Below are positions 741 to 11,103 of a DNA stretch of 11,103 nt, piece after piece. Each line of letters opens with the position of its first letter. The first letter of the stretch is position 1. Position numbers and translations under genes: made by a program. The stretch covers positions 1 to 11,103 of the forward strand of contig RDOC01000017.1 of the NCBI GenBank assembly GCA_011364985.1, written 5' to 3'. A model generated the notes under the pieces. The model was not told where the DNA came from and did no database searches. It worked only from the letters and a program-made list of their open reading frames with translations. The stretch comes from Candidatus Thorarchaeota archaeon (GTDB lineage Archaea; Asgardarchaeota; Thorarchaeia; Thorarchaeales; Thorarchaeaceae).

Positions 741-822
741 TAAAAGTTTGACTCGCGCAGTACCTAGAGTTGTCAAGGGTCGAAGTTGTAACAGACGGAG
801 CCTCCATCCTTTGTGAGCTATT
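728..822 (+). repeat. Direct repeat copy 1 (23S 3' tail plus trailer; attL-like)
   Basis: 749-795 TGACTCGCGCAGTACCTAGAGTTGTCAAGGGTCGAAGTTGTAACAGA matches 10268-10314 at 46/47 positions. The flanks GAGGCGTGCGGTC (728-740) and GCCTCCATC (800-808) also match copy 2. Confidence 0.93.
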
Positions 823-1341: not shown

Positions 1342-2769
1342 TCATAGATCGAGCCAGTCTTCCTTCGTTCTATCTCCCGCCCAATCTTCCCATTCCTTTG
1401 TTTTTGGCATCGTGATAACGATGTCTTCTTTTCTTGGACTCTGATGATCAAGAATATATCTCCATGGCGTCGATCTTGTGGCATCTTCCACATGAAACTT
1501 CAGTTTAATTCTTCCCCGAGAATCTACCGCACACCTCAGTATTCTCAAGAACTTCTGAAACTTGCGTTTTGCATATTCGTAGACTTCCTCATGGTGCTTA
1601 TCTTTGTCGTCACCTCGGAAGATTACGATGAATTCCACTTCTTCAGTATTCAGTGTCAGGATTTCCAATCGTGCTTTCAGCACATTTTCTTGCCGAAACA
1701 TTGCAGGACGAGGTCTATCCCACTCCTGCATCTCATCCATAAGTACCAGTAGAAATGGGAAGTTCATGATAGTTATGTGGTAGATAAAGTCGCAGTTGTG
1801 AGAGGCTATTGCCCTCAGAATATTACTGCGAATAAGGAATTGACGTGCGTCTTCAGGCTTTAGGCTTTTGACCTTATCCAGTTGAAAATCTGTTTCCAAG
1901 AAATATACTAGACTTCTCATTAAGATTACACAACTGAGTACGCCATGGTCATACGAATCCAATGCAACCATGAACTTGTGGTAATACTTTGGCTGAATAT
2001 GAATTGCAAACTCGCCATTGATCCCAGTTGGCTGGATCGAGGCTGCTGTGACTGAAAGTACTTGACTGCAGATGTTCTGAAACATTGGAGACACTACATA
2101 CTCCAGTTCCTTAACTGACAGCTTGCCTATTTGCTCAAATGTACTACGAACAGCTCTATTCAAGTCGTACACATTTTCCAAGGCAAGGCCAAGATCATGA
2201 CATAGAGCAATGATACACCACATTGCTTCTTTTTCTGCAACTGAAATCTTGAAATCGAATTCCTTGTTCCCGAATTTAATCTTCACTTCCCCATACTTCG
2301 TATCTCCACAATCAATGATTTCGTATCCAATTGATGGTCGAGAGAATACCTTCCAGCCCAGAAGATACGTCCTTACCACATGCACAATATGGTCTCTGTT
2401 TCGCTCAATGATTACTGATATTGACTTCTCATAGCTGCCGATTCCTGTGAACACCTTGGCCAGTTTTTCAACTCCAAAAGCAAATGCATCATGATAGTCT
2501 CTCTCCCGGTAATCATTGTGTTTCAAGTACACTATCGCATCACGAAGGAGTGTTTCCCAGAGTCCTAGAACTGTGTCCACCTGTTCGCTCAATGAGATAT
2601 CAGAAGAGAGCTTCTCAATGGCCTTGTGGGTCCTGTTTTGTTTCTTTATTTTCTTTCGAATTTTGTCAGCAAAACCAATGAAAGCGGTCTTCATCGCTTG
2701 TTTCTTGAATTCCTCAATAAGTTTCTTGTCCTCTTCCACTTTCAAAAACACTGATACATCATCTGTCAT
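1342..2769 (-). CDS. HD-superfamily metal-dependent phosphohydrolase, HD-CE-like, ~475 aa
   Basis: Motifs RDHIVHVVRTYLLG, WCIIALCHDLG, DHGVLS, AIASHN and LLVLMDEMQEWDR. The start is placed at ATG 2769 (MTDD), which overlaps the radical SAM 3' end by 11 nt, rather than at the ORF-track start 2829. Confidence 0.8.
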   Translation of the reverse strand: MTDDVSVFLKVEEDKKLIEEFKKQAMKTAFIGFADKIRKKIKKQNRTHKAIEKLSSDISLSEQVDTVLGLWETLLRDAIVYLKHNDYRERDYHDAFAFGVEKLAKVFTGIGSYEKSISVIIERNRDHIVHVVRTYLLGWKVFSRPSIGYEIIDCGDTKYGEVKIKFGNKEFDFKISVAEKEAMWCIIALCHDLGLALENVYDLNRAVRSTFEQIGKLSVKELEYVVSPMFQNICSQVLSVTAASIQPTGINGEFAIHIQPKYYHKFMVALDSYDHGVLSCVILMRSLVYFLETDFQLDKVKSLKPEDARQFLIRSNILRAIASHNCDFIYHITIMNFPFLLVLMDEMQEWDRPRPAMFRQENVLKARLEILTLNTEEVEFIVIFRGDDKDKHHEEVYEYAKRKFQKFLRILRCAVDSRGRIKLKFHVEDATRSTPWRYILDHQSPRKEDIVITMPKTKEWEDWAGDRTKEDWLDL

Positions 2770-3772
2770 GTTGCAGCACCTCTGGCTTCTGACACGATAT
2801 GATCCTTGATGATAATTCCAAAGATTCATGCTCGATACGAATGATCTGTGCCGGGCATGAATCCAGCTTGCTCTCCAGCAGCCTGCTACGAATCTTCTTT
2901 CCGGTTTCTAGCCAGCCCTTGGTCCAGTCAGATTGCCAAGCTGTCTTCAAAGATACTTCCAGAGCATTAGGGGCGCCTTTGAGCAGTAAATCATCCTTAA
3001 GCGCCTCGCAAAGCGAGAGTCGACCGTCAGATAAGATTGTCATTCTGTTACCCAGTGAACAACCATCTCTAGACCCCAAATTTAGAAAAGAGAATGGGGT
3101 TCCTAGTCTCAGAATCGAGGTCTCTTTCTGAGAAAGGTTTTCAATTTTCCTAGTGAATTGTGTCAAATCTTTCTTGGTGAGTTCTAGGGAATCCTTGTTG
3201 AGCAGTCCACGTCCCTGCGGAACAAATCTAAGAAGACTAACTTGGCTCAGCCCCTCATTTAAGGCGAAGTCGATGACTTTGTCCAAATGCTCAATATTCG
3301 CCTTTAATGGAACAAAGTGAATTGAACAAGATCCTCCCATGTTCCGTATTCTTCTGAGCGCAGTTGTTGTGAATCTGAAGCTGCCTGGCGTCCTTGTTAA
3401 TCTATCATGAATTCCCATGGGACCATGTAAGCCAAAAACCACCTCATCAGCCAGATGTGCAGTTGTTTCTAAGGTTCTGTCATCAGGAATTGAGAGTCGG
3501 CTATTTTCTCCTTTGATAACTATACCAGATGTGTATACTGCCAGCTTCAGTCCTGCATTTCTTATATGCTCTAACAAACTAAGATAGCCTGGGTACTCGA
3601 GCGGCTCTCCACCGGACAAACAGATCTTACGGGCGCCAAGGGCGAGAGACTGGTCTATTAACTCCATCCACTGACAGGTTTCTACATGGTGAACGTAACT
3701 TGGGTGGGCATTTGAAGAACAGAAACTGCACTGAAGTGGGCACTTTCTAGTAAGTTCCAAAGTAATTTCCAT
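2759..3772 (-). CDS. Radical SAM enzyme with C-terminal Twitch/SPASM-like Cys motif
   Basis: CxxxCxxC (CPLQCSFC), SGGEPL, RFVPQGRG, C-terminal GCSLGNRMTILSDGRLSLC and DSCPAQ. An RBS (GGTGAGG) lies in the end of the upstream gene. Confidence 0.92.
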   Translation of the reverse strand: MEITLELTRKCPLQCSFCSSNAHPSYVHHVETCQWMELIDQSLALGARKICLSGGEPLEYPGYLSLLEHIRNAGLKLAVYTSGIVIKGENSRLSIPDDRTLETTAHLADEVVFGLHGPMGIHDRLTRTPGSFRFTTTALRRIRNMGGSCSIHFVPLKANIEHLDKVIDFALNEGLSQVSLLRFVPQGRGLLNKDSLELTKKDLTQFTRKIENLSQKETSILRLGTPFSFLNLGSRDGCSLGNRMTILSDGRLSLCEALKDDLLLKGAPNALEVSLKTAWQSDWTKGWLETGKKIRSRLLESKLDSCPAQIIRIEHESLELSSRIISCQKPEVLQHDR

Positions 3773-3774
3773 CT

Positions 3775-4401
3775 CTAGTCCTCACCTAATACTAAAGACA
3801 TTTCTTGCGTGTGAATAATGCGACTGAAGTAGGATGGATACATGCTACGTGATAGGGCACCGTTCCCGCCTCTTATTGCATATCCCGGATGGTAGGCTTT
3901 CACTATATGTGTACCGTTCTTTCGTATCAAGTTGTCCATTGTACGTTCCATTTCCCTCCCCTGAAGATGCTTCCATACGATTGTTCCCAGTGCGACGATG
4001 ATCTTCGGTCGTATCAAGTTCATTTCTTCCACTAGATACTCAGTGCAATTGATTAATTCTTTCTCTGTAGGAGGCCGATTTCGTCCCATGGAGTCTTGCG
4101 GATTGCATTTCACTATGTTCGTGATGTAAGCTGAAAGGCGTGGTTTCACCACATTTGGCTTTGCTTCTTTGGATATGCCGGAACTAATCAATGCCTCTTG
4201 CAGCAGCATTCCTGAAGGATCCCCTGTAAAAGGAACTCCCGTTTTATCAGCACCATTTCTTCCTGGCGCCAATCCGACAATTAGTATTCCGGCAGTAGGA
4301 TCTCCGTAACCAGATACAATTCTGGACCTAGTTTTCACGAGATTCGGGCATTTGACACAGTTGTTTCTCATGCACCTACTAAGCATCGCTTCATGCTTCA
4401 T
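3775..4401 (-). CDS. Uracil-DNA glycosylase, 4Fe-4S type (family 5/UdgB-like)
   Basis: CVKCPNL, GLAPGRNGADKTGVPFTGDPSG (family-5-like GLAP motif rather than family-4 GEAP), YITNIVKCNP, NRPPT..E..C, IVALG and YHPG. Confidence 0.9.
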   Translation of the reverse strand: MKHEAMLSRCMRNNCVKCPNLVKTRSRIVSGYGDPTAGILIVGLAPGRNGADKTGVPFTGDPSGMLLQEALISSGISKEAKPNVVKPRLSAYITNIVKCNPQDSMGRNRPPTEKELINCTEYLVEEMNLIRPKIIVALGTIVWKHLQGREMERTMDNLIRKNGTHIVKAYHPGYAIRGGNGALSRSMYPSYFSRIIHTQEMSLVLGED

Positions 4402-4728
4402 TTTCTACCATCCTTGCATGTTGACTAGAAGCCCAGGTGTCTAAAGTATTTGTCGTCCGAAAGGGCATATTTGGTGCTTATCTGAATGCCAAGTTGTCCT
4501 GTATCAGCGGTAGTTATCCAGAGCATAGCCTCCTCTGTATATTTGAGAACTGCTAAAAGTGCAATACCCATATCAGCACTGATCTATCATAATAATTGTC
4601 ACATCTAGGTTTTGTTCAATACTTGAGCAATTTAATAGAAAGAGTAATTAGTCTGTTCTTCCAACCATTCTAATTCGTACTTTAAACTGCGTGTGGTGCT
4701 TAGTGCTCTTGATGGGATGGGGCAGGAA
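4402..4728. promoter_or_regulatory. AT-rich divergent promoter region with candidate TATA box TTTAAA (4681-4686) for the + strand HD gene
   Basis: Lies between head-to-head genes. TTTAAA is ~30 nt upstream of ATG 4717 and ~42 nt upstream of ATG 4729. Confidence 0.4.
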
Positions 4729-6408
4729 ATGACTATTAGAGTGAAACAATTCAGAGACGTGATTCATGGAAACATTATAATTCCTGAACTACTGGTAGAT
4801 ACAGTCGTGGACCGTAGCATCTTCCAGCGAATGAGGTGGATAAACCAAACGTCAGCGACTTATTTTGTTTACCCTTCCCTGCAGGGATCCAGATTTCAGC
4901 ATAGTCTCGGAGCTGCACATGTAATTGGACTGGCTCTAGATTATCTTGTTACCAACACGGAACTGCACACAGAGAAACGATTTAACCCTGACGAATTGCA
5001 TGATCTCTGTTTTCTTCTGCGTGCAATTCGCCCTTGGGCTCAATTTGGAGCGCTTACGCACGACATAGGGCACAACGCATTTTCGCATGTTTTTGAAGAA
5101 TCGGTACATGACTTAGTCTACGTCCTTGGACAGGAAGTTAAGGGGTTCAAGGAGAGTGGTCAGAAACTCCATGAAGACTATACCGGAATAATCACGAGCG
5201 CCATGTTAGGCGATGAAAGCATTTGCACTGCTCTTAGAGAACTTTTTCTTAAAACAACAGATGCACTCGGAATTTCACCTCGGGAGGGAAGTCCTGCGGA
5301 AAGGATTCTAGAGTTCATAAAGAAATGTACGAAAGAAGAGCTGGGACGATTGGTCTGGCATACTGTCCGAAATCCTAGAGGCAGCATTATAGAAATCCCC
5401 AAAAAACTTGAGGATCGAAAAGTAAGGGATCTTATTGAAAACACCAATACAATTGTTTGTTCCCTTCTTTCTGGCCCACTCGACGTTGACAGAGCCGATT
5501 ACATTCTTAGGGATGCATATCTATCTGGCATGAACGTTCACTTTGATCTTGATAGATATGCTGCAGTATTAGTATTAATTAAGGGTTCAGATGGTAAGGT
5601 TCGCGTAGGAGTACTAGAAAAAGGTGTTTCTCTTCTTGAGTCTTTTATGATCGCACGTTTTCATATGCACAGAGAAGTTTATGGGCACAAGCTCTCTATG
5701 GTCTATAATGGCATTCTCAGAAGGATAATGACACTTCTGATGGCTAAAACTGCTGGTGATTTTAAGATTGATCTGCCTCCGTTAGACATGCCACTTATTG
5801 TTGATAGAGCTGGGCAACAGCCAACTCTAGATGATATTGAGCCATACTTCTTGAAACTCACAGATGTCCAGATACTCCACAGAATCACTGAGATGTATAG
5901 AAGCGGCGTTCCAAATCCTCTGGGAATCCTTGTGAAGGCTTTTGTTGAGCGAAAACACTACAGACCTGAGGAAGCCAATGTTCCTCCAAAAGGAATATTC
6001 CTACGGTATGATACCAAACGCATGGTTTCAGGTGCGACAAGCAACTATTTCGAGGAATATGAGGAGAAGGTAGACCAAGTTATGTGTCCACCGAAATACA
6101 TTCGAGTCAGCGAAGAGAGAGAAGTGCTCCATTGTGCTAAACACAAACAGGATCTAATATATTGGAAACATATGTTTGGAACATCATCAAGTGACATATC
6201 ACAAGTCCCAGTTTATCAGAAGTCCGGAATGGTTGTGAAGGTGGACCATATTACGGGCCTTCTACCTCTGCTGGAAGCTTCGAGATCAGTGAGCATTCTT
6301 CTACTTGTTGCAAAATATGCTCCCAGTGCTAACTTCAAGCCAACGGACGAATCCTGGATTGCTAAACTCGTAGAAACCATGACTAGCATCACTGCAGGTG
6401 CAGCATAG
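4729..6408 (+). CDS. SAMHD1/COG1078-type HD dNTP triphosphohydrolase (complete catalytic motif set)
   Basis: FRDVIHG, VDRSIFQRMRWINQ, YPSLQGSRFQHSLG, THDIGHNAFSH, KLHED, DVDRADYILRD and ARFHMHREVYGHK. The start could be 4729, 4717 (ATG) or 4693 (GTG). Confidence 0.9.
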   Translation: MTIRVKQFRDVIHGNIIIPELLVDTVVDRSIFQRMRWINQTSATYFVYPSLQGSRFQHSLGAAHVIGLALDYLVTNTELHTEKRFNPDELHDLCFLLRAIRPWAQFGALTHDIGHNAFSHVFEESVHDLVYVLGQEVKGFKESGQKLHEDYTGIITSAMLGDESICTALRELFLKTTDALGISPREGSPAERILEFIKKCTKEELGRLVWHTVRNPRGSIIEIPKKLEDRKVRDLIENTNTIVCSLLSGPLDVDRADYILRDAYLSGMNVHFDLDRYAAVLVLIKGSDGKVRVGVLEKGVSLLESFMIARFHMHREVYGHKLSMVYNGILRRIMTLLMAKTAGDFKIDLPPLDMPLIVDRAGQQPTLDDIEPYFLKLTDVQILHRITEMYRSGVPNPLGILVKAFVERKHYRPEEANVPPKGIFLRYDTKRMVSGATSNYFEEYEEKVDQVMCPPKYIRVSEEREVLHCAKHKQDLIYWKHMFGTSSSDISQVPVYQKSGMVVKVDHITGLLPLLEASRSVSILLLVAKYAPSANFKPTDESWIAKLVETMTSITAGAA

Positions 6409-6416
6409 GTGTTGTG

Positions 6417-6442
6417 TCTAGAGCCTTGTACAAAGGGCTAGA
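6417..6442. terminator. Imperfect palindrome between convergent genes, possible terminator hairpin
   Basis: TCTAGAGCCTTGT|ACAAAGGGCTAGA (10/13 positions complementary) in the 52-nt gap between the stops at 6408 and 6461. Confidence 0.25.
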
Positions 6443-6460
6443 ATCCCCAAACCAAATTGG

Positions 6461-6727
6461 TTATTCTTCAAAGGTTGGCGAACAAGGTTTCACTAACCCC
6501 TTCTCCAAGGTAATCTTGCCTTCGTTCTTGAGACGCTGCAGTTCCTTCTCAAAGCGATCATAAGACATGACTCCATCGACAACAATAGGACATGATGCTC
6601 CTGCGAGCCGATAGTTGCCATTTAATCCAACAGCACATCGGCGCATCTCATCAAGTTTCATTCCTTTTCTATTCTCTGCTAGAAGCATTTGAATGAGATC
6701 TCGAGAACCGACAATATTGAAGGTCAT
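6461..6727 (-). CDS. Small hypothetical protein, possible winged helix-turn-helix (88 aa)
   Basis: ATG start. The pattern LIQMLL...GMKLDEM...MSYDRFEKELQRLKNEGKITLEKGLVKP resembles a recognition helix followed by a beta wing. Confidence 0.55.
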   Translation of the reverse strand: MTFNIVGSRDLIQMLLAENRKGMKLDEMRRCAVGLNGNYRLAGASCPIVVDGVMSYDRFEKELQRLKNEGKITLEKGLVKPCSPTFEE

Positions 6728-7298
6728 CTATTTCATCTCGGGTTCCTGTTTTGATTTGTGCCTATTAATCCCTACGGAACTATGTGAAATTCGCGCCAAT
6801 TGAAGTGCACATTGGCATCTAGACAACAGGCAGTAATACTGGGTGCACAATGTTTCAAATATCTGTTTCTTTTCGAAACTACTCCTGCTTTGCTCATCTG
6901 AGCAGCTCATAGACTGAAGCTCAGTCATGTTGGTTCTAATGTACTTGTCAAGGGTCAAATTCGTAACCAACCGAGCTTCCGCTCTTAGTGGGTCGATCTC
7001 CCTTTTGGACTAACCAGAAACTTGTTAATAATTCCAAAAACATGTAATCCTATCACTGGATGCAGTGAGAACCACTACTCATTTTAGAAGAATTGACTCC
7101 TACAAGAGCATAAGAACGCGCCCCACGCCCCAATGGGAATACAATCGTTGCTCGTTAAAGGATATAAAGAAGCTTCATCAGCGATGGAAAGTCATCCTTG
7201 CTCTTTCAGTAACAGCAGAGAACCCTACTATCCCATCCCGCCAGATATGATATGATGTACTTCTCAAAATGATTGTTCTTCATCCACCGATGCAACTA

Positions 7299-8708
7299 TC
7301 ATCTCTGATGGCATGTCACTAGAGATGTCATGACACCGTGTAGCCTCTGTGTCATTGATTCCACCTTTTTGCTTGGTTGTTTACGTTTCCAGGCAACTGC
7401 CTTATCATCGACTCTAAACCCAACAATTACATTCGGCAGTGCTTGCAGGGTTTTCTGAGGAACTAAAGCATGCGCCAAGTAACTAACCTCTCTTAAATCT
7501 ACAAGGCCCTCTTCACGGGGTAGTATAACAGGCATCAAATAATCAGGCAAAGAACTTCGGAGTCTTGGCATCACATCTACAATGACCTCTCCTATTCCCA
7601 GGTCAACTGCATCAGCGAGTTCTTGCTCAAGCTTCAGCAACGTATCAGGGTGAAGAATTAGATGGGAAATCTCACTTCTAGCTTCATAACTCATATTTGA
7701 ATAGCCATAGCTAAGCGTGTCACTCACATAATAGGGACAACCGTTTATTATATCCCCAGCAATACGGCGAGAATTGTCGATAGAACAGGAAGCCAAATCT
7801 TGGAGAAGTCCATCATCAGTTCTCAACCAAACCGCCTGAAGCAGGGGTTTGTACTCGTCTCTAGCATAGAACAATGCTCTTGAAGCCATTGAATGCAGAA
7901 TTCTTACGAGTCTATGAGAGTAGAGCCGCCGATAAAGAATTGCCTCCGATGCGAACATTGATTCAACTGATGGTACTCCATCAAAGGATATTGCAAGTAT
8001 ACGAGGCGTTTCAGATCCATGAAATCCTTCGACATCTCTTACTCTTAAGTTACTCATGATGCCCTCTAGGTCATAAAGCGCGAAAGGAATGGTGTTGTAA
8101 GCATCTCTGATAATGTAATCCATTCTATCTACATCTACTTCACTGCAGATTAGATTTGCAATGTACATCTTACTTGGCTCGGGATGGTTGCCAGTTATTA
8201 TCTGGGAGAGAAGCTGTGGAGCCAATCCACGGCTTTCATACTTCTCCAACAATTCGACAGCTCGCGGGATGGATCTGTGACCTGCAACTTCTAATTCAAT
8301 CTCTCCACATAGCATCATCTTTGCAACATGTTTGTCTGTAAAGGATTTTCTTTCGCCAAGCAGGTCGAGGAATCTATCAACAGCATATCCTAATGCGGAA
8401 TGTCCTATGTCATGTATTAGAGCCGCAATACCTACCTGTTTGATATCATCATGTGTGATGGAGTATCCTGTTTTAAGGTCAAACTGAAGCCTATCCATAA
8501 TTACCTTGGTAAGGTAATTCGTGCCAATTGAATGTTCAAATCGTGTGTGTTTCGCATGGGGATACACGATGTCCGCTACTGAGAGTTGGCGAATTCTTCG
8601 AAGACGTTCTAGCTCTGCACAATGAATGATATCCATCTCCAATGCATCAAGACAGATATTAGCTTTGTAGACAGGGTCATAGAACACAGGCCGACCGTAA
8701 TGCGCCAT
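7299..8708 (-). CDS. Second SAMHD1/COG1078-type HD protein with atypical active site
   Basis: FYDPVY, LERLRRIRQLSVADIVYPHAKHTRFEHSIG, IHDIGHSALGY, DVDRMDYIIRDAY and LYRRLYSHR, plus an archaeal-type C-terminal domain (LEQELADAV..EVIVDV). The start is probably ATG 8708 behind a GGTGAT RBS; alternatives are GTG 8717 or 8720. Confidence 0.88.
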   Translation of the reverse strand: MAHYGRPVFYDPVYKANICLDALEMDIIHCAELERLRRIRQLSVADIVYPHAKHTRFEHSIGTNYLTKVIMDRLQFDLKTGYSITHDDIKQVGIAALIHDIGHSALGYAVDRFLDLLGERKSFTDKHVAKMMLCGEIELEVAGHRSIPRAVELLEKYESRGLAPQLLSQIITGNHPEPSKMYIANLICSEVDVDRMDYIIRDAYNTIPFALYDLEGIMSNLRVRDVEGFHGSETPRILAISFDGVPSVESMFASEAILYRRLYSHRLVRILHSMASRALFYARDEYKPLLQAVWLRTDDGLLQDLASCSIDNSRRIAGDIINGCPYYVSDTLSYGYSNMSYEARSEISHLILHPDTLLKLEQELADAVDLGIGEVIVDVMPRLRSSLPDYLMPVILPREEGLVDLREVSYLAHALVPQKTLQALPNVIVGFRVDDKAVAWKRKQPSKKVESMTQRLHGVMTSLVTCHQR

Positions 8709-8713
8709 CGCTA

Positions 8714-9262
8714 TCACCACATACTCCCACTTTGCTGTGCATTAATATGTGATGAACCCAGTAGGCATTCTGCTGTTTCGCGAAACAATGTTTGAACGTT
8801 TTCATTCTTCTTTGCACTTGTGAGAATGTGGAGGAATCTCTTAGGATATGACTTAATGATTAGAGCTTCAAGGCCACTTGCGAATGAAACTAATGGCTTG
8901 ATGTCAGTTTTGTTACCAACCAGAATGAAGCACCTTATCCCAAGAAGTGACGATAATTCTGAAGTAAAATAGTGCCCAGCTGCTGTTGCTGTTGCTTCAC
9001 GAGACACATCATAGACGAGAATTAGAGCGTGAGCGTTAGAGTAATAGCTAGATCTAAGAGGATCATAGCGAGACTGACCAGCCAAGTCCCAGACAACCAG
9101 CCTGACATCTACTCCCCTTATTTCAATATTGAGGACGTAGATACTGCATCCAACTGTAGGCCAGTAATCTTCCTCAAACTTCCCGGTTTCGAACCTATGA
9201 CATAGTGCGGTCTTGCCTACTGCTCCAGGCCCACATACCACAACCTTGAACATCCTGTCCAT
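8714..9262 (-). CDS. Ras-superfamily (Rab-like) small GTPase
   Basis: G1 GPGAVGKT, G2 YWPTVG, G3 WDLAGQ, G4 NKTD, G5 TSAK, plus the Rab-like LRSSYY and LVYDVS segments. No C-terminal prenylation Cys. A GGAGG RBS lies upstream. Confidence 0.95.
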   Translation of the reverse strand: MDRMFKVVVCGPGAVGKTALCHRFETGKFEEDYWPTVGCSIYVLNIEIRGVDVRLVVWDLAGQSRYDPLRSSYYSNAHALILVYDVSREATATAAGHYFTSELSSLLGIRCFILVGNKTDIKPLVSFASGLEALIIKSYPKRFLHILTSAKKNENVQTLFRETAECLLGSSHINAQQSGSMW

Positions 9263-9264
9263 GC

Positions 9265-9834
9265 TTAGTCGTCCTCCAGAAATGATTCAATGATTCCTTT
9301 CAGTGCTCTCTCGGTCAATTCCTGTCCTGTGTAGTCAACTTCAATTTGGCTTAGCACATTCAACTTCACCTCCTCTGAGTAGAATTGAAGATGTCTTTGG
9401 ATGTTTTGCTTCAAGATCAGCAAAACCGGAAGCAGAAGGTTGATTGATTCTACCAGTTTTTCGTACTCCTCATGCTCCTCTGCGTAGTAATGAAGTGTCT
9501 GAATAAGGTGCGAGCAATTGGTCATTAGCTGTCTCGTAGTTGGATGGTGGATATACACGAAAATCACTCCTGAATGTCCATAGAATGCATCCGGGTTGAT
9601 CTTCAAATCACCGTACTTGACCTTGCCTTTGAGTTTCAGATATGAGTTTAATTTAACAAGCGTTTCGAGAAGTAGACTATAGTAAGGCATCAGTCCGTCA
9701 GCTGTTGCCTTTAGGGCCAGTGACTTTCGGCGTTTTCTCGTGTCAATGATATAATTAATGAAAAGCCCCAGGGCTGTGACTGCAACGGATATAATGGAAA
9801 TCATTGTTGCCACACCGATAGGCTCGACCTGCAA
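9265..9834 (-). CDS. Hypothetical single-pass membrane protein (N-terminal TM anchor plus helical cytoplasmic domain)
   Basis: Hydrophobic IGVATMISIISVAVTALGLFINYII is followed by basic RKRRK (positive-inside rule). TTG start behind GGAGTGTGA. The stop is 2 nt before the GTPase ATG. Confidence 0.75.
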   Translation of the reverse strand: MQVEPIGVATMISIISVAVTALGLFINYIIDTRKRRKSLALKATADGLMPYYSLLLETLVKLNSYLKLKGKVKYGDLKINPDAFYGHSGVIFVYIHHPTTRQLMTNCSHLIQTLHYYAEEHEEYEKLVESINLLLPVLLILKQNIQRHLQFYSEEVKLNVLSQIEVDYTGQELTERALKGIIESFLEDD

Positions 9835-10239
9835 TCAAATATCACACTCCAATAGCAAAACATCGACATTCTCATTAGGCTTCTTTATCTATCTTGTTGA
9901 GAATCACAATAGCCGATTTTACTCTGATTTTCTCATTCCTGTTGGCGCCTCTTGGAGTACGCAGAAAATGCATTGCATCACCACTTGCCTGCAAAATTGG
10001 CCAAATCCTGCAACCGCATAGTTCTGTTTACTTCTTTGTAGTACTTCAAAAACGAACACAACGTATTAAGGATGTATCATAACATCGGTTCTGCACCAGT
10101 CTTCAAAATCGACAGATTCCGAAGAGTTCCTTGATACTCTCTAGTCATATTCGTGAGGTATATCTCATCAAAACTCAATGGGAAAAGCTTGTTCTCCAAA
10201 TTCAGTTGAAAATGTAAATCGGTCATTGCTCAGACGACA

Positions 10240-10341
10240 GAGGCGTGTGATCCAAGACTCGGGAGTATGACTCGCGCAGTACCTAGTGTTGTCAAGGGTC
10301 GAAGTTGTAACAGATAATGCCTCCATCTTTTGCAAGTTGTT
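10240..10341 (+). repeat. Direct repeat copy 2 (displaced 23S 3' tail plus trailer; attR-like)
   Basis: GAGGCGTGTGATC (10240-10252) matches 728-740 at 11/13. A spacer 7 nt longer than in copy 1 follows, then 10268-10314 (46/47 identical to 749-795) and GCCTCCATC. Confidence 0.92.
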
Positions 10342-10817: not shown

Positions 10818-11103
10818 ACTTCAATGATATCCTTTTTGTTTGAAGAGCCTTCTCCTAGACGCATAGAAGGAGATCAAGTAATAGTATCTCTAAACCTTCA
10901 TCGGGCAAGTTCTCTTCCTAGTGCCTTCCCCCTTTATCGTTCTTTTTTCCTAACCCAAGAATCAACGGCATGCCACACACTGGATGAGAGTTGTGTTGTT
11001 CTCGAAGGAGGTGTTGCCTAAGTCGTGCCTGCCATTGCTTCTAATTGTTGGCTCAAATCTCCCACAAAGAGGATGAGCTGAAGCAACTCTATATCGACGT
11101 GCA

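What the first reader, a model, noticed from the sequence alone, without database searches (positions are those of the whole stretch)
7299..9834. Membrane anchor, Rab-like GTPase and SAMHD1-like HD operon: candidate GTPase-switched system on a mobile island
Seen: three genes with 2-nt and ~5-nt gaps and internal RBSs, encoding a single-pass TM protein, an intact small GTPase lacking a lipidation motif, and an HD protein. Established: Asgard Ras-like GTPases are eukaryotic signature proteins, usually discussed with roadblock/longin partners, and SAMHD1-family enzymes are GTP-regulated. Inference: a membrane-tethered sensor or GEF-like protein signals through the GTPase to an HD effector, possibly sensing infection or guanine-nucleotide status. 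This would put a eukaryote-like GTPase in a horizontally moving defence or signalling module. I know no described system with this architecture.
Basis: partly seen in the sequence, partly recalled or inferred. Interest (0 to 1): 0.85.

Follow-up and report, generated by a model that had tools for sequence, protein, structure and literature searches.

The report
Membrane-anchored partner of Asgard Rab-like GTPase
The three genes are real, but only the first two (a single-pass membrane protein and a Rab-like GTPase) form a recurring unit in Asgard archaea, found side by side or fused into one protein, whereas the SAMHD1-like HD enzyme joins them only at this locus, so the likely new thing is a dedicated membrane anchor for a lipid-less archaeal GTPase and not a conserved three-part defence system.

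Summary
Observation confirmed. Three minus-strand genes lie 2 nt and 5 nt apart: a 189-aa N-terminal single-pass membrane protein with a cytoplasmic four-helix bundle, an intact 182-aa Rab-like GTPase with no lipidation motif, and a 469/473-aa HD plus HD_assoc_2 protein.

Interpretation partly supported.
- **Membrane protein and GTPase.** The membrane protein belongs to a small, unannotated family named so far only from Asgard archaea (15 representatives among 1.84 billion proteins; 9 of 400 Asgard genomes). In all 11 resolvable cases it either abuts a Ras-family GTPase (both gene orders) or is fused N-terminally to one (two clusters). Partner and GTPase identities co-vary (Mantel r 0.66).
- **HD gene.** It is not part of that unit. 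None of those loci has an HD. HD473 has no homologue above 32% identity elsewhere and only a 40% paralogue in its own genome. Its nearest relatives are instead preceded by a Panacea (antitoxin-type) gene.
- **Setting.** The triplet fills exactly one cassette between copies of a roughly 80-nt repeat. That repeat forms variable arrays after the 23S rRNA gene in this genus. No integrase was found.

Most likely this is a membrane-tethered GTPase switch with a co-transcribed, strain-specific HD passenger or effector. GTPase control of the HD remains possible (about 0.25) but untested. The scan had not reported this pairing before on other DNA.

The parts
9265..9834 (-). Single-pass (N-out, C-in) membrane protein with a cytoplasmic four-helix bundle. 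Founding member here of an unannotated Asgard family that is always paired or fused with a Ras-family GTPase.
   Evidence: ORF. Transmembrane segment and positive-inside pattern. AF2 model pLDDT 86.7. No Pfam or PADLOC family. Family of 15 representatives. Alignment A2 with invariant P50, Y52 and Y152. Contexts.
8714..9262 (-). Rab-like small GTPase with all G motifs intact and no lipidation motif. Cognate GTPase of the membrane partner.
   Evidence: Pfam Ras 2e-34. PDB matches Rab43 2e-25 and Thor-Rab 7ezb 4.5e-21. Shares the GPGAVGKTA and WDLAGQ signatures of other partner-linked GTPases (A3).
7299..8720 (-). SAMHD1/EF1143-type HD phosphohydrolase (HD plus HD_assoc_2); the likely start is ATG 8708. 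It is a strain-specific addition to the pair.
   Evidence: Pfam. PDB. Metal ligands H63, H103-D104 and D198 are intact, and Tyr112 replaces the near-invariant His (A1). Near-orphan status.
9272..9277 (-). GGAGGA Shine-Dalgarno-like motif 9 nt before the GTPase ATG.
   Evidence: Read from the sequence.
8714..8718 (-). GGTGA Shine-Dalgarno-like motif, overlapping the GTPase stop codon, 5 nt before the HD ATG at 8708.
   Evidence: Read from the sequence.
6945..6990 (+). Copy 2 (degenerate, 76%) of the cassette-border repeat; downstream boundary of the triplet cassette.
10264..10341 (+). Copy 3 (86%) of the cassette-border repeat; upstream boundary of the triplet cassette.
745..822 (+). Copy 1 of the repeat, directly after the 3' end of the 23S rRNA gene (Rfam match ends at 741).

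Best explanation
The locus combines two things.

(1) A conserved two-gene module. A membrane-anchored helical-bundle protein sits with its cognate Rab-like GTPase. The anchor has a short N-terminus outside, one transmembrane helix continuing into a long stalk, and a cytoplasmic four-helix bundle. It most likely holds or recruits the GTPase at the inner face of the cell membrane, and may also regulate its nucleotide state. In this way it would do the job that C-terminal prenylation does for eukaryotic Rabs.

(2) A strain-specific SAMHD1/EF1143-type HD phosphohydrolase gene. It is translationally coupled to the GTPase gene inside one repeat-bounded cassette of a variable array after the 23S rRNA gene. 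It belongs to an accessory HD subfamily whose other members carry an antitoxin-type gene in the upstream position. The HD is therefore best read as a co-transcribed passenger, or a locally recruited effector, and not as a defining part of the system.

Shown: gene structure, domain identities, pair conservation, fusions, co-divergence, lack of triplet conservation, and the cassette setting.
Inferred: physical binding, membrane recruitment, and any enzymatic role of the HD.
For: Pair conservation:
- GTPase then partner in L082 (1-nt gap), L083 (overlap), L086 (3 nt), L087 (18 nt), L092 (12 nt), L094 and L099.
- Partner then GTPase in the window, L081 (4 nt) and L097 (4-nt overlap).
- Sources.

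Fusions: P0147 (408 aa) and P0153 (373 aa, a 5-member cluster) have the partner domain N-terminal and the Ras domain C-terminal.

Background rate: my rough estimate is that about 1.5% of genes would have a Ras GTPase as a neighbour, based on 13 Ras matches in 1.7 Mb.

Co-divergence: identities of partner and GTPase correlate across 9 pairs, Mantel r 0.66, permutation p about 6e-4.

Topology: the transmembrane segment and positive-inside pattern occur in all 14 members. The model shows helix 6-67 plus a bundle.

Named members come from Hermod-, Loki/Prometh- and Odinarchaeota MAGs, all labelled 'hypothetical'.

HD is not part of the unit:
- tblastn finds no HD in 18 partner loci.
- No HD473 match at E <= 1e-30 in 85 same-family genomes.
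- Best identity in 5.8 billion proteins is 32%.
- Its closest relatives P0002 and P0003 are preceded by a 147-aa Panacea gene (PF13274, 29.2 bits against a cut-off of 25.7), and one is followed by an integrase fragment.

Cassette setting.

Literature: Thor-Rab lacks the prenylated tail and showed no membrane targeting, and Asgard GTPases are generally not in operons with their regulators (PMC10933270).
Against: - No experiment and no RNA data exist for this locus.
- The family is rare (9 of 400 Asgard genomes), so it cannot be the general way Asgard GTPases reach membranes.
- The window's GTPase sits on a long branch and does not fall inside the well-supported clade of 'GTPase then partner' GTPases in a quick tree.
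- Against the 'HD is a passenger' half: the 5-nt gap with an SD-like motif over the stop codon argues for co-translation. The three genes fill exactly one cassette. Related HDs always have a small upstream partner gene, a position the GTPase occupies here.
Confidence: 0.6

Rival explanations
1. Three-component, GTPase-switched effector system. The membrane protein senses or localises, the GTPase switches, and the HD enzyme is the output. The output might be nucleotide depletion or nucleic-acid cleavage during infection. The GTPase module would replace the antitoxin-like regulator that related HDs carry.
For: - The GTPase and HD genes are tightly coupled: 5-nt gap, with an SD-like motif over the stop codon.
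- The triplet is exactly one cassette between repeat copies 2 and 3.
- HD473's subfamily has a conflict-type context. There is a Panacea gene upstream of P0002 and P0003 and an integrase fragment next to one. The own-genome paralogue on C17 is preceded by a 152-aa protein whose structural neighbours are domains fused to antitoxins.
- A different, core HD paralogue sits next to a Roadblock-X-GTPase operon in 19 of 20 sampled genomes of the family.
- Two HD-GTPase proximities among the 5 HD-type (HD_assoc_2-bearing) genes in one genome.
Against: - This is a single instance. No other partner-GTPase locus has an HD and no HD relative has a GTPase.
- No GTPase-HD fusion was found among longer proteins (weak evidence).
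- SAMHD1's guanine-site residues are not conserved.
- No PADLOC defence model matches the membrane protein or the GTPase.
- The core HD-Roadblock synteny holds only within the order. It is present in G311 and absent in G007 and G111, so it may be inherited gene order only.
Confidence: 0.25
2. Three unrelated accessory genes packed together by chance in a compact island, with no functional link between any of them.
For: All three are accessory and poorly conserved. Islands often pack unrelated genes tightly.
Against: The partner-GTPase link recurs in 9 of 9 resolvable loci, in both gene orders, and as fusions, and the two proteins co-diverge. Chance cannot explain that half.
Confidence: 0.05
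3. The membrane protein is an enzyme-like regulator (GEF or GAP) or an effector of the GTPase, not mainly an anchor. Membrane attachment would be incidental, as with Sec12, the membrane-anchored GEF of Sar1.
For: The bundle carries conserved motifs: LLPFY with invariant Pro50 and Tyr52, FVYIRD..RQ, and Tyr152. This is more than a passive tether would need. The pair co-diverges.
Against: The fold is a generic up-down helical bundle with no specific match. The best Foldseek E-value is 0.28, and the best VIA Z is 11.6 to designed bundles, below the level that is informative for helical bundles. Stable single-chain fusions fit a tether at least as well as a catalytic regulator.
Confidence: 0.1

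Closest known systems
Asgard Rab-like GTPases, e.g. Thor-Rab (PDB 7ezb; Tran et al. 2024, PMC10933270)
   Same: Ras-superfamily fold with intact G1-G5 motifs. Short C-terminus with no prenylation cysteines. Sequence match 4.5e-21.
   Different: The paper found no membrane targeting, and found that Asgard GTPase genes are generally not in operons with regulators. Here the GTPase has a dedicated, operonic (elsewhere fused) membrane-anchored partner. Identity to any other GTPase is at most 38%.
SR-beta (signal-recognition-particle receptor beta; an Arf-like GTPase with its own N-terminal transmembrane anchor). Comparison from my own knowledge.
   Same: The fused forms (P0147, P0153) have the same logic: an N-terminal transmembrane helix followed by a cytoplasmic small GTPase.
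   Different: A roughly 150-residue helical bundle lies between anchor and GTPase. The GTPase is Rab/Ras-like by Pfam and PDB ranking. Mostly it is split into two genes. No SR-alpha-like partner was seen. Homology to SR-beta was not tested.
Sec12-Sar1, and Ragulator (LAMTOR1 anchor)-Rag. Comparison from my own knowledge and from the Ragulator description in PMC10933270.
   Same: A separate membrane-attached protein brings or activates a lipid-less small GTPase at a membrane.
   Different: Sec12 is a beta-propeller and Ragulator uses Roadblock domains with a lipidated subunit. Here the partner is a transmembrane-anchored four-helix bundle of no known family, and no GEF activity is shown.
SAMHD1 / EF1143 dNTP triphosphohydrolases
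   Same: HD plus HD_assoc_2 architecture. The metal ligands H..HD..D are conserved. E-values 1e-21 (2o6i) and about 1e-17 (SAMHD1).
   Different: The equivalent of SAMHD1 H215 is Tyr. Allosteric D137 and Q142 are His and Glu. Identity is only about 25-30%. Substrate is unknown.
Panacea (PanA) antitoxin-toxin pairs (Kurata et al. 2022, PMC8832971)
   Same: The nearest HD relatives have a Panacea-domain gene directly upstream, in the usual antitoxin-then-toxin order.
   Different: The window has no Panacea gene; the GTPase holds that position. The main text of that paper does not mention HD toxins. Toxicity of these HDs is untested.
Small GTPases on mobile-like regions of Atabeyarchaeia (Valentin-Alvarado et al. 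2024, PMC11529989)
   Same: A eukaryote-like small GTPase sits in a strain-variable, mobile-looking region of an Asgard genome.
   Different: Those are Arf-like and no membrane partner or HD is reported. Here the setting is a repeat-bounded cassette after the 23S rRNA gene.

Membership tests
Ras superfamily small GTPase (Pfam PF00071) | G1 GxxxxGK[ST], G2 Thr, G3 DxxGQ, G4 NKxD, G5 SAK | tested here: met
   GPGAVGKT, T36, DLAGQ, NKTD and SAK are present. Pfam Ras scores 118.9 bits against a cut-off of 21.6.
Eukaryotic Rab family | C-terminal prenylation cysteines (CC, CXC or CAAX) | tested here: not met
   The protein ends ...QQSGSMW with no terminal Cys. Tran et al. note the same for Thor-Rab.
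Eukaryotic Rab family | Rab-specific RabF and RabSF motifs; placement inside Rab clades | not tested
   Only similarity ranking was done (Rab43, Rab30, Rab21 and Rab35 rank top). The quick tree left the protein unplaced on a long branch.
SAMHD1/EF1143-type dNTP triphosphohydrolase | HD metal ligands H...HD...D plus the HD-associated C-terminal region | tested here: met
   H63, H103-D104 and D198 are invariant in A1. HD and HD_assoc_2 both pass Pfam cut-offs.
SAMHD1/EF1143-type dNTP triphosphohydrolase | Catalytic helper His (SAMHD1 H215). Its role is from my own knowledge. | tested here: not met
   The aligned residue is Tyr112. The His is present in at least 90% of the aligned relatives, including the 40% paralogue.
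SAMHD1 (GTP-activated) | Guanine-specific allosteric-site-1 residues D137, Q142 and R145. Their roles are from my own knowledge. | tested here: not met
   The HMMER alignment to 5ao1 gives H, E and R at these positions.
SAMHD1/EF1143-type dNTP triphosphohydrolase | dNTP triphosphohydrolase activity | not testable with these tools
   Needs an enzyme assay.
dGTPase anti-phage defence (PADLOC PDLC02374) | Full-length match to the defence dGTPase profile | tested here: inconclusive
   24 bits, E 5.4e-6, covering only profile positions 48-123 of 395.
PanA-PanT (Panacea) toxin-antitoxin pair | A Panacea/DUF4065 gene adjacent to the toxin gene | tested here: not met
   No window ORF matches PF13274. 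It is present only beside the relatives P0002 and P0003.
Integron cassette array | IntI-type integrase plus attC sites with a conserved hairpin | tested here: not met
   No integrase in the window or in the adjoining end of contig C19. The 13 aligned repeat copies give no consensus structure. Cassettes here hold several genes in both orientations.
New family: transmembrane-anchored helical-bundle partner of Asgard GTPases (alignment A2) | N-terminal transmembrane helix plus basic patch, LLPFY and FVYIRD..RQ motifs, and an adjacent or fused Ras-family GTPase | tested here: met
   The window protein shows all sequence features, and the GTPase follows after 2 nt.

The most novel reading that the evidence does not exclude
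A Rab-like GTPase tethered to the membrane by its dedicated anchor directly switches a SAMHD1-type HD hydrolase on or off, in place of the antitoxin that related HDs use. That would make a mobile archaeal defence or abortive-infection cassette built around a eukaryote-type small GTPase.
Probability: 0.2. Interest if true: 0.8.

Novelty: new variant of a known kind. Interest (0 to 1): 0.55.

Why it matters
How Asgard small GTPases work without lipid anchors is an open question. So is which proteins partner which GTPase. Tran et al. 2024 state that genome layout rarely helps to match GTPases with their regulators.

This family gives one concrete and testable answer for one clade: a genetically hard-wired membrane anchor, sometimes fused to the GTPase. 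Defined pairs are available for pull-down, liposome-recruitment and nucleotide-exchange assays.

It also shows that such a module can travel as a cassette, here together with a nucleotide-hydrolase gene. The family is rare, so it is a special case and not the general mechanism.

Tried and rejected
- **Complex prediction.** Partner residues 36-189 plus the GTPase gave no verdict, with runs of 0.27, 0.49 and 0.12 against a mark of 0.32. This counts neither for nor against binding.
- **RNA evidence.** No RNA holder is listed. Only the likely source sample holds the DNA. Laying contigs showed only assembly continuity.
- **Fold searches of the partner model.** Foldseek against the PDB gave nothing better than E 0.28. 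The VIA wide search gave a best Z of 11.6 to designed or sensor four-helix bundles, which is uninformative for helical bundles. Atlas neighbours had no family.
- **PADLOC.** Nothing for the membrane protein or the GTPase.
- **GTPase tree.** The careful search did not finish. The quick tree leaves the window's GTPase unplaced.
- **Fusion search.** The search among longer proteins for GTPase-HD fusions gave two unrelated fusions only.
- **GTPase's nearest homologues.** At 37-38% identity, they sit beside gelsolin or another GTPase, not beside an HD or the partner.
- **Rejected idea: the C17 152-aa protein or the window's 88-aa ORF are Panacea domains.** There is only a short motif resemblance and no Pfam hit, even at E 5.
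- **Rejected idea: the array is a classical integron.** See the membership test.
Full report
**Setting.** The window is an entire 11,103-bp contig (C8) of a 1.70-Mb, 22-contig archaeal MAG that is 74% complete. Positions 1-741 are the 3' end of an archaeal 23S rRNA gene. A protein in the same 90%-identity cluster as one of this genome's core proteins is labelled Promethearchaeota, that is, Asgard. Earlier scan notes call the genome Thorarchaeota, which I did not verify at class level. The DNA comes from marine sediment and is held only by what is probably its source sample.

Three minus-strand ORFs lie at 9834-9265, 9262-8714 and 8720/8708-7299.
- The first gap is 2 nt, with GGAGGA 9 nt upstream of the GTPase ATG.
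- The HD gene most plausibly starts at ATG 8708, as in the public gene call of 469 aa. That start is 5 nt after the GTPase stop codon, and GGTGA overlaps the stop.
- The first protein has one N-terminal hydrophobic helix (residues 8-26) followed by RKRRK. Its AF2 model (pLDDT 86.7) shows a helix from 6 to 67 leading into a helical bundle.
- The second is a Ras-family GTPase (Pfam 2e-34) with all five G motifs and the catalytic Gln. It resembles Rab43, Rab30, Rab35 and Thor-Rab most closely. It has no terminal cysteine and no N-terminal glycine.
- The third carries HD and HD_assoc_2. It matches EF1143 at 1e-21 and SAMHD1 at about 1e-17.

**The membrane protein and the GTPase are a conserved unit.** An exhaustive HMMER search of 1.84 billion representatives found 15 family members. 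Named ones come from Hermod-, Loki/Prometh- and Odinarchaeota MAGs, all labelled 'hypothetical protein'. A profile scan found the family in 9 of 400 Asgard genomes: 4 of 85 in the same family and 0 of 16 in the same genus.

Every locus with enough flanking sequence has a Ras-family GTPase gene abutting it.
- GTPase then partner: L082, L083, L086 (= L090), L087 (= L091), L092, L094 and L099.
- Partner then GTPase: the window, L081 and L097.
- Gaps range from an 11-nt overlap to 18 nt.

Two clusters (P0147, 408 aa; P0153, 373 aa, five members) are single-chain fusions, with the partner domain followed by a linker and a Ras domain. Beyond the pair, the neighbours differ from locus to locus. Across nine pairs, partner identity and GTPase identity correlate (Mantel r 0.66, p about 6e-4). 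This shows inheritance as a pair, though shared ancestry contributes. All 14 aligned members keep the transmembrane helix with acidic residues before it and basic residues after it. The bundle is therefore cytoplasmic, on the same side as the GTPase. Conserved motifs are LLPFY (invariant P50 and Y52), FVYIRD..RQ and Y152. No known family or specific fold matches.

**The HD gene is not part of that unit.**
- tblastn with HD473 finds nothing in 18 partner loci.
- HD473 has no match at E <= 1e-30 in 85 same-family genomes. Its best identity among 5.8 billion proteins is 32%. Its only closer relative is a 40% paralogue on contig C17 of the same genome.
- The closest outside relatives, P0002 and P0003, are each preceded by a 147-aa gene. 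One of these passes Pfam's threshold for the Panacea antitoxin domain (29.2 against 25.7 bits), and one locus continues with an integrase fragment.
- The C17 paralogue is preceded by a 152-aa protein whose structural neighbours are domains fused to antitoxins.
- No GTPase lies near any of these HD genes, and no GTPase-HD fusion was seen among longer proteins (weak evidence).

At residue level the metal ligands are intact, but the equivalent of SAMHD1 H215 is Tyr. Two of the three guanine-specific allosteric residues differ. The argument 'SAMHD1 is GTP-regulated, hence a GTPase link' therefore gains nothing from the sequence.

**What still speaks for a local link to the HD.**
- The coupling is tight (5-nt gap).
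- The GTPase occupies the slot that antitoxin-like genes hold beside related HDs.
- The cassette structure groups the three genes. A roughly 80-nt repeat starts right after the 23S gene (745-822) and recurs at 6945-6990 and 10264-10341. The triplet is the whole content of one cassette.

The repeat also occurs on contig C19, whose end overlaps C8's right end by 77 nt. It forms arrays with 0.5-1.3-kb cassettes after the 23S gene in same-genus genomes. One of those genomes carries the window's UDG-radical SAM-495-aa operon at the same hotspot. No integrase was found.

A different, core HD paralogue sits next to a Roadblock-X-GTPase operon in 19 of 20 sampled genomes of the family and in one same-order genome. 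It does not in two more distant Asgard genomes. That is suggestive, but it may be inherited gene order only.

**Comparison with what is known.** Tran et al. 2024 (PMC10933270) showed that Thor-Rab lacks the prenylated tail and does not reach membranes in HeLa cells. They also reported that Asgard GTPases are rarely in operons with regulators. A dedicated anchor gene addresses exactly that gap for one clade. Valentin-Alvarado et al. 2024 (PMC11529989) already reported Arf-like GTPases in a mobile-like Asgard region, so 'a eukaryote-like GTPase on mobile DNA' is not new in itself. The GTPase-centred conflict systems of Kaur et al. 2020 appear to use other GTPases: term searches found no Ras-like GTPase and no HD domain in that paper. 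My literature searches found no description of this partner family.

**Verdict.** The new element is the partner-GTPase module. The HD is a one-off addition whose control by the GTPase is possible but unsupported.

Noticed in passing
window 745-822, 6945-6990, 10264-10341; L077 (G000:C19) 6907-6981 and 10153-10190; L078-L080: A conserved repeat of about 80 nt begins right after the 23S rRNA 3' end and bounds a string of variable cassettes of 0.5-6 kb. Same-genus genomes have arrays of 2-5 copies after their 23S genes. There is no consensus hairpin and no integrase nearby. This looks like a site-specific integration hotspot whose attachment site overlaps the rRNA trailer.
   Followed up: partly
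L002 (G000:C15) 5265-9895; L047-L066: A core cluster of HTH regulator, HD (431 aa), Roadblock-domain protein (315 aa), unknown protein (306 aa) and Ras-family GTPase (192 aa) is kept in 19 of 20 sampled genomes across the family; in one of these the Roadblock-X-GTPase block is inverted. HD-Roadblock adjacency is also seen in a same-order genome, but not in two more distant Asgard genomes.
   Followed up: partly
L010 5574-8053; L011 5548-7410; L012: Metagenomic HD relatives form Panacea-domain (147 aa) plus HD pairs, one followed by a tyrosine-integrase fragment. This may be an undescribed Panacea-HD toxin-antitoxin-like pair.
   Followed up: partly
L086 5253-6438; L087 4652-7900: In two loci from different Asgard families, the partner-GTPase pair lies convergent with one or two actin-family genes.
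   Followed up: no
window 1342-4401; L080 12-2803: The UDG, radical SAM and 495-aa operon of the neighbouring cassette recurs in a same-genus genome (G370) at the same 23S-flanking hotspot. There it is followed by a duplicated 23S tail plus the repeat.
   Followed up: partly
window 4693-6408: A second SAMHD1-like HD protein (571 aa) with a large insertion lies in the adjacent cassette. It is only 22% identical to HD473.
   Followed up: no
window 11027-11103 and G000:C19 69998-70074: The right end of this contig overlaps the end of contig C19 by 77 identical bases in reverse orientation, so the two contigs probably join there.
   Followed up: partly
L001 (G000:C17) 4997-8357: The 40% paralogue of HD473 lies beside a TnpB/Cas12f-like fragment and is flanked by small unknown genes of 152 aa upstream and 109 aa overlapping downstream. 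This is another accessory context.
   Followed up: partly
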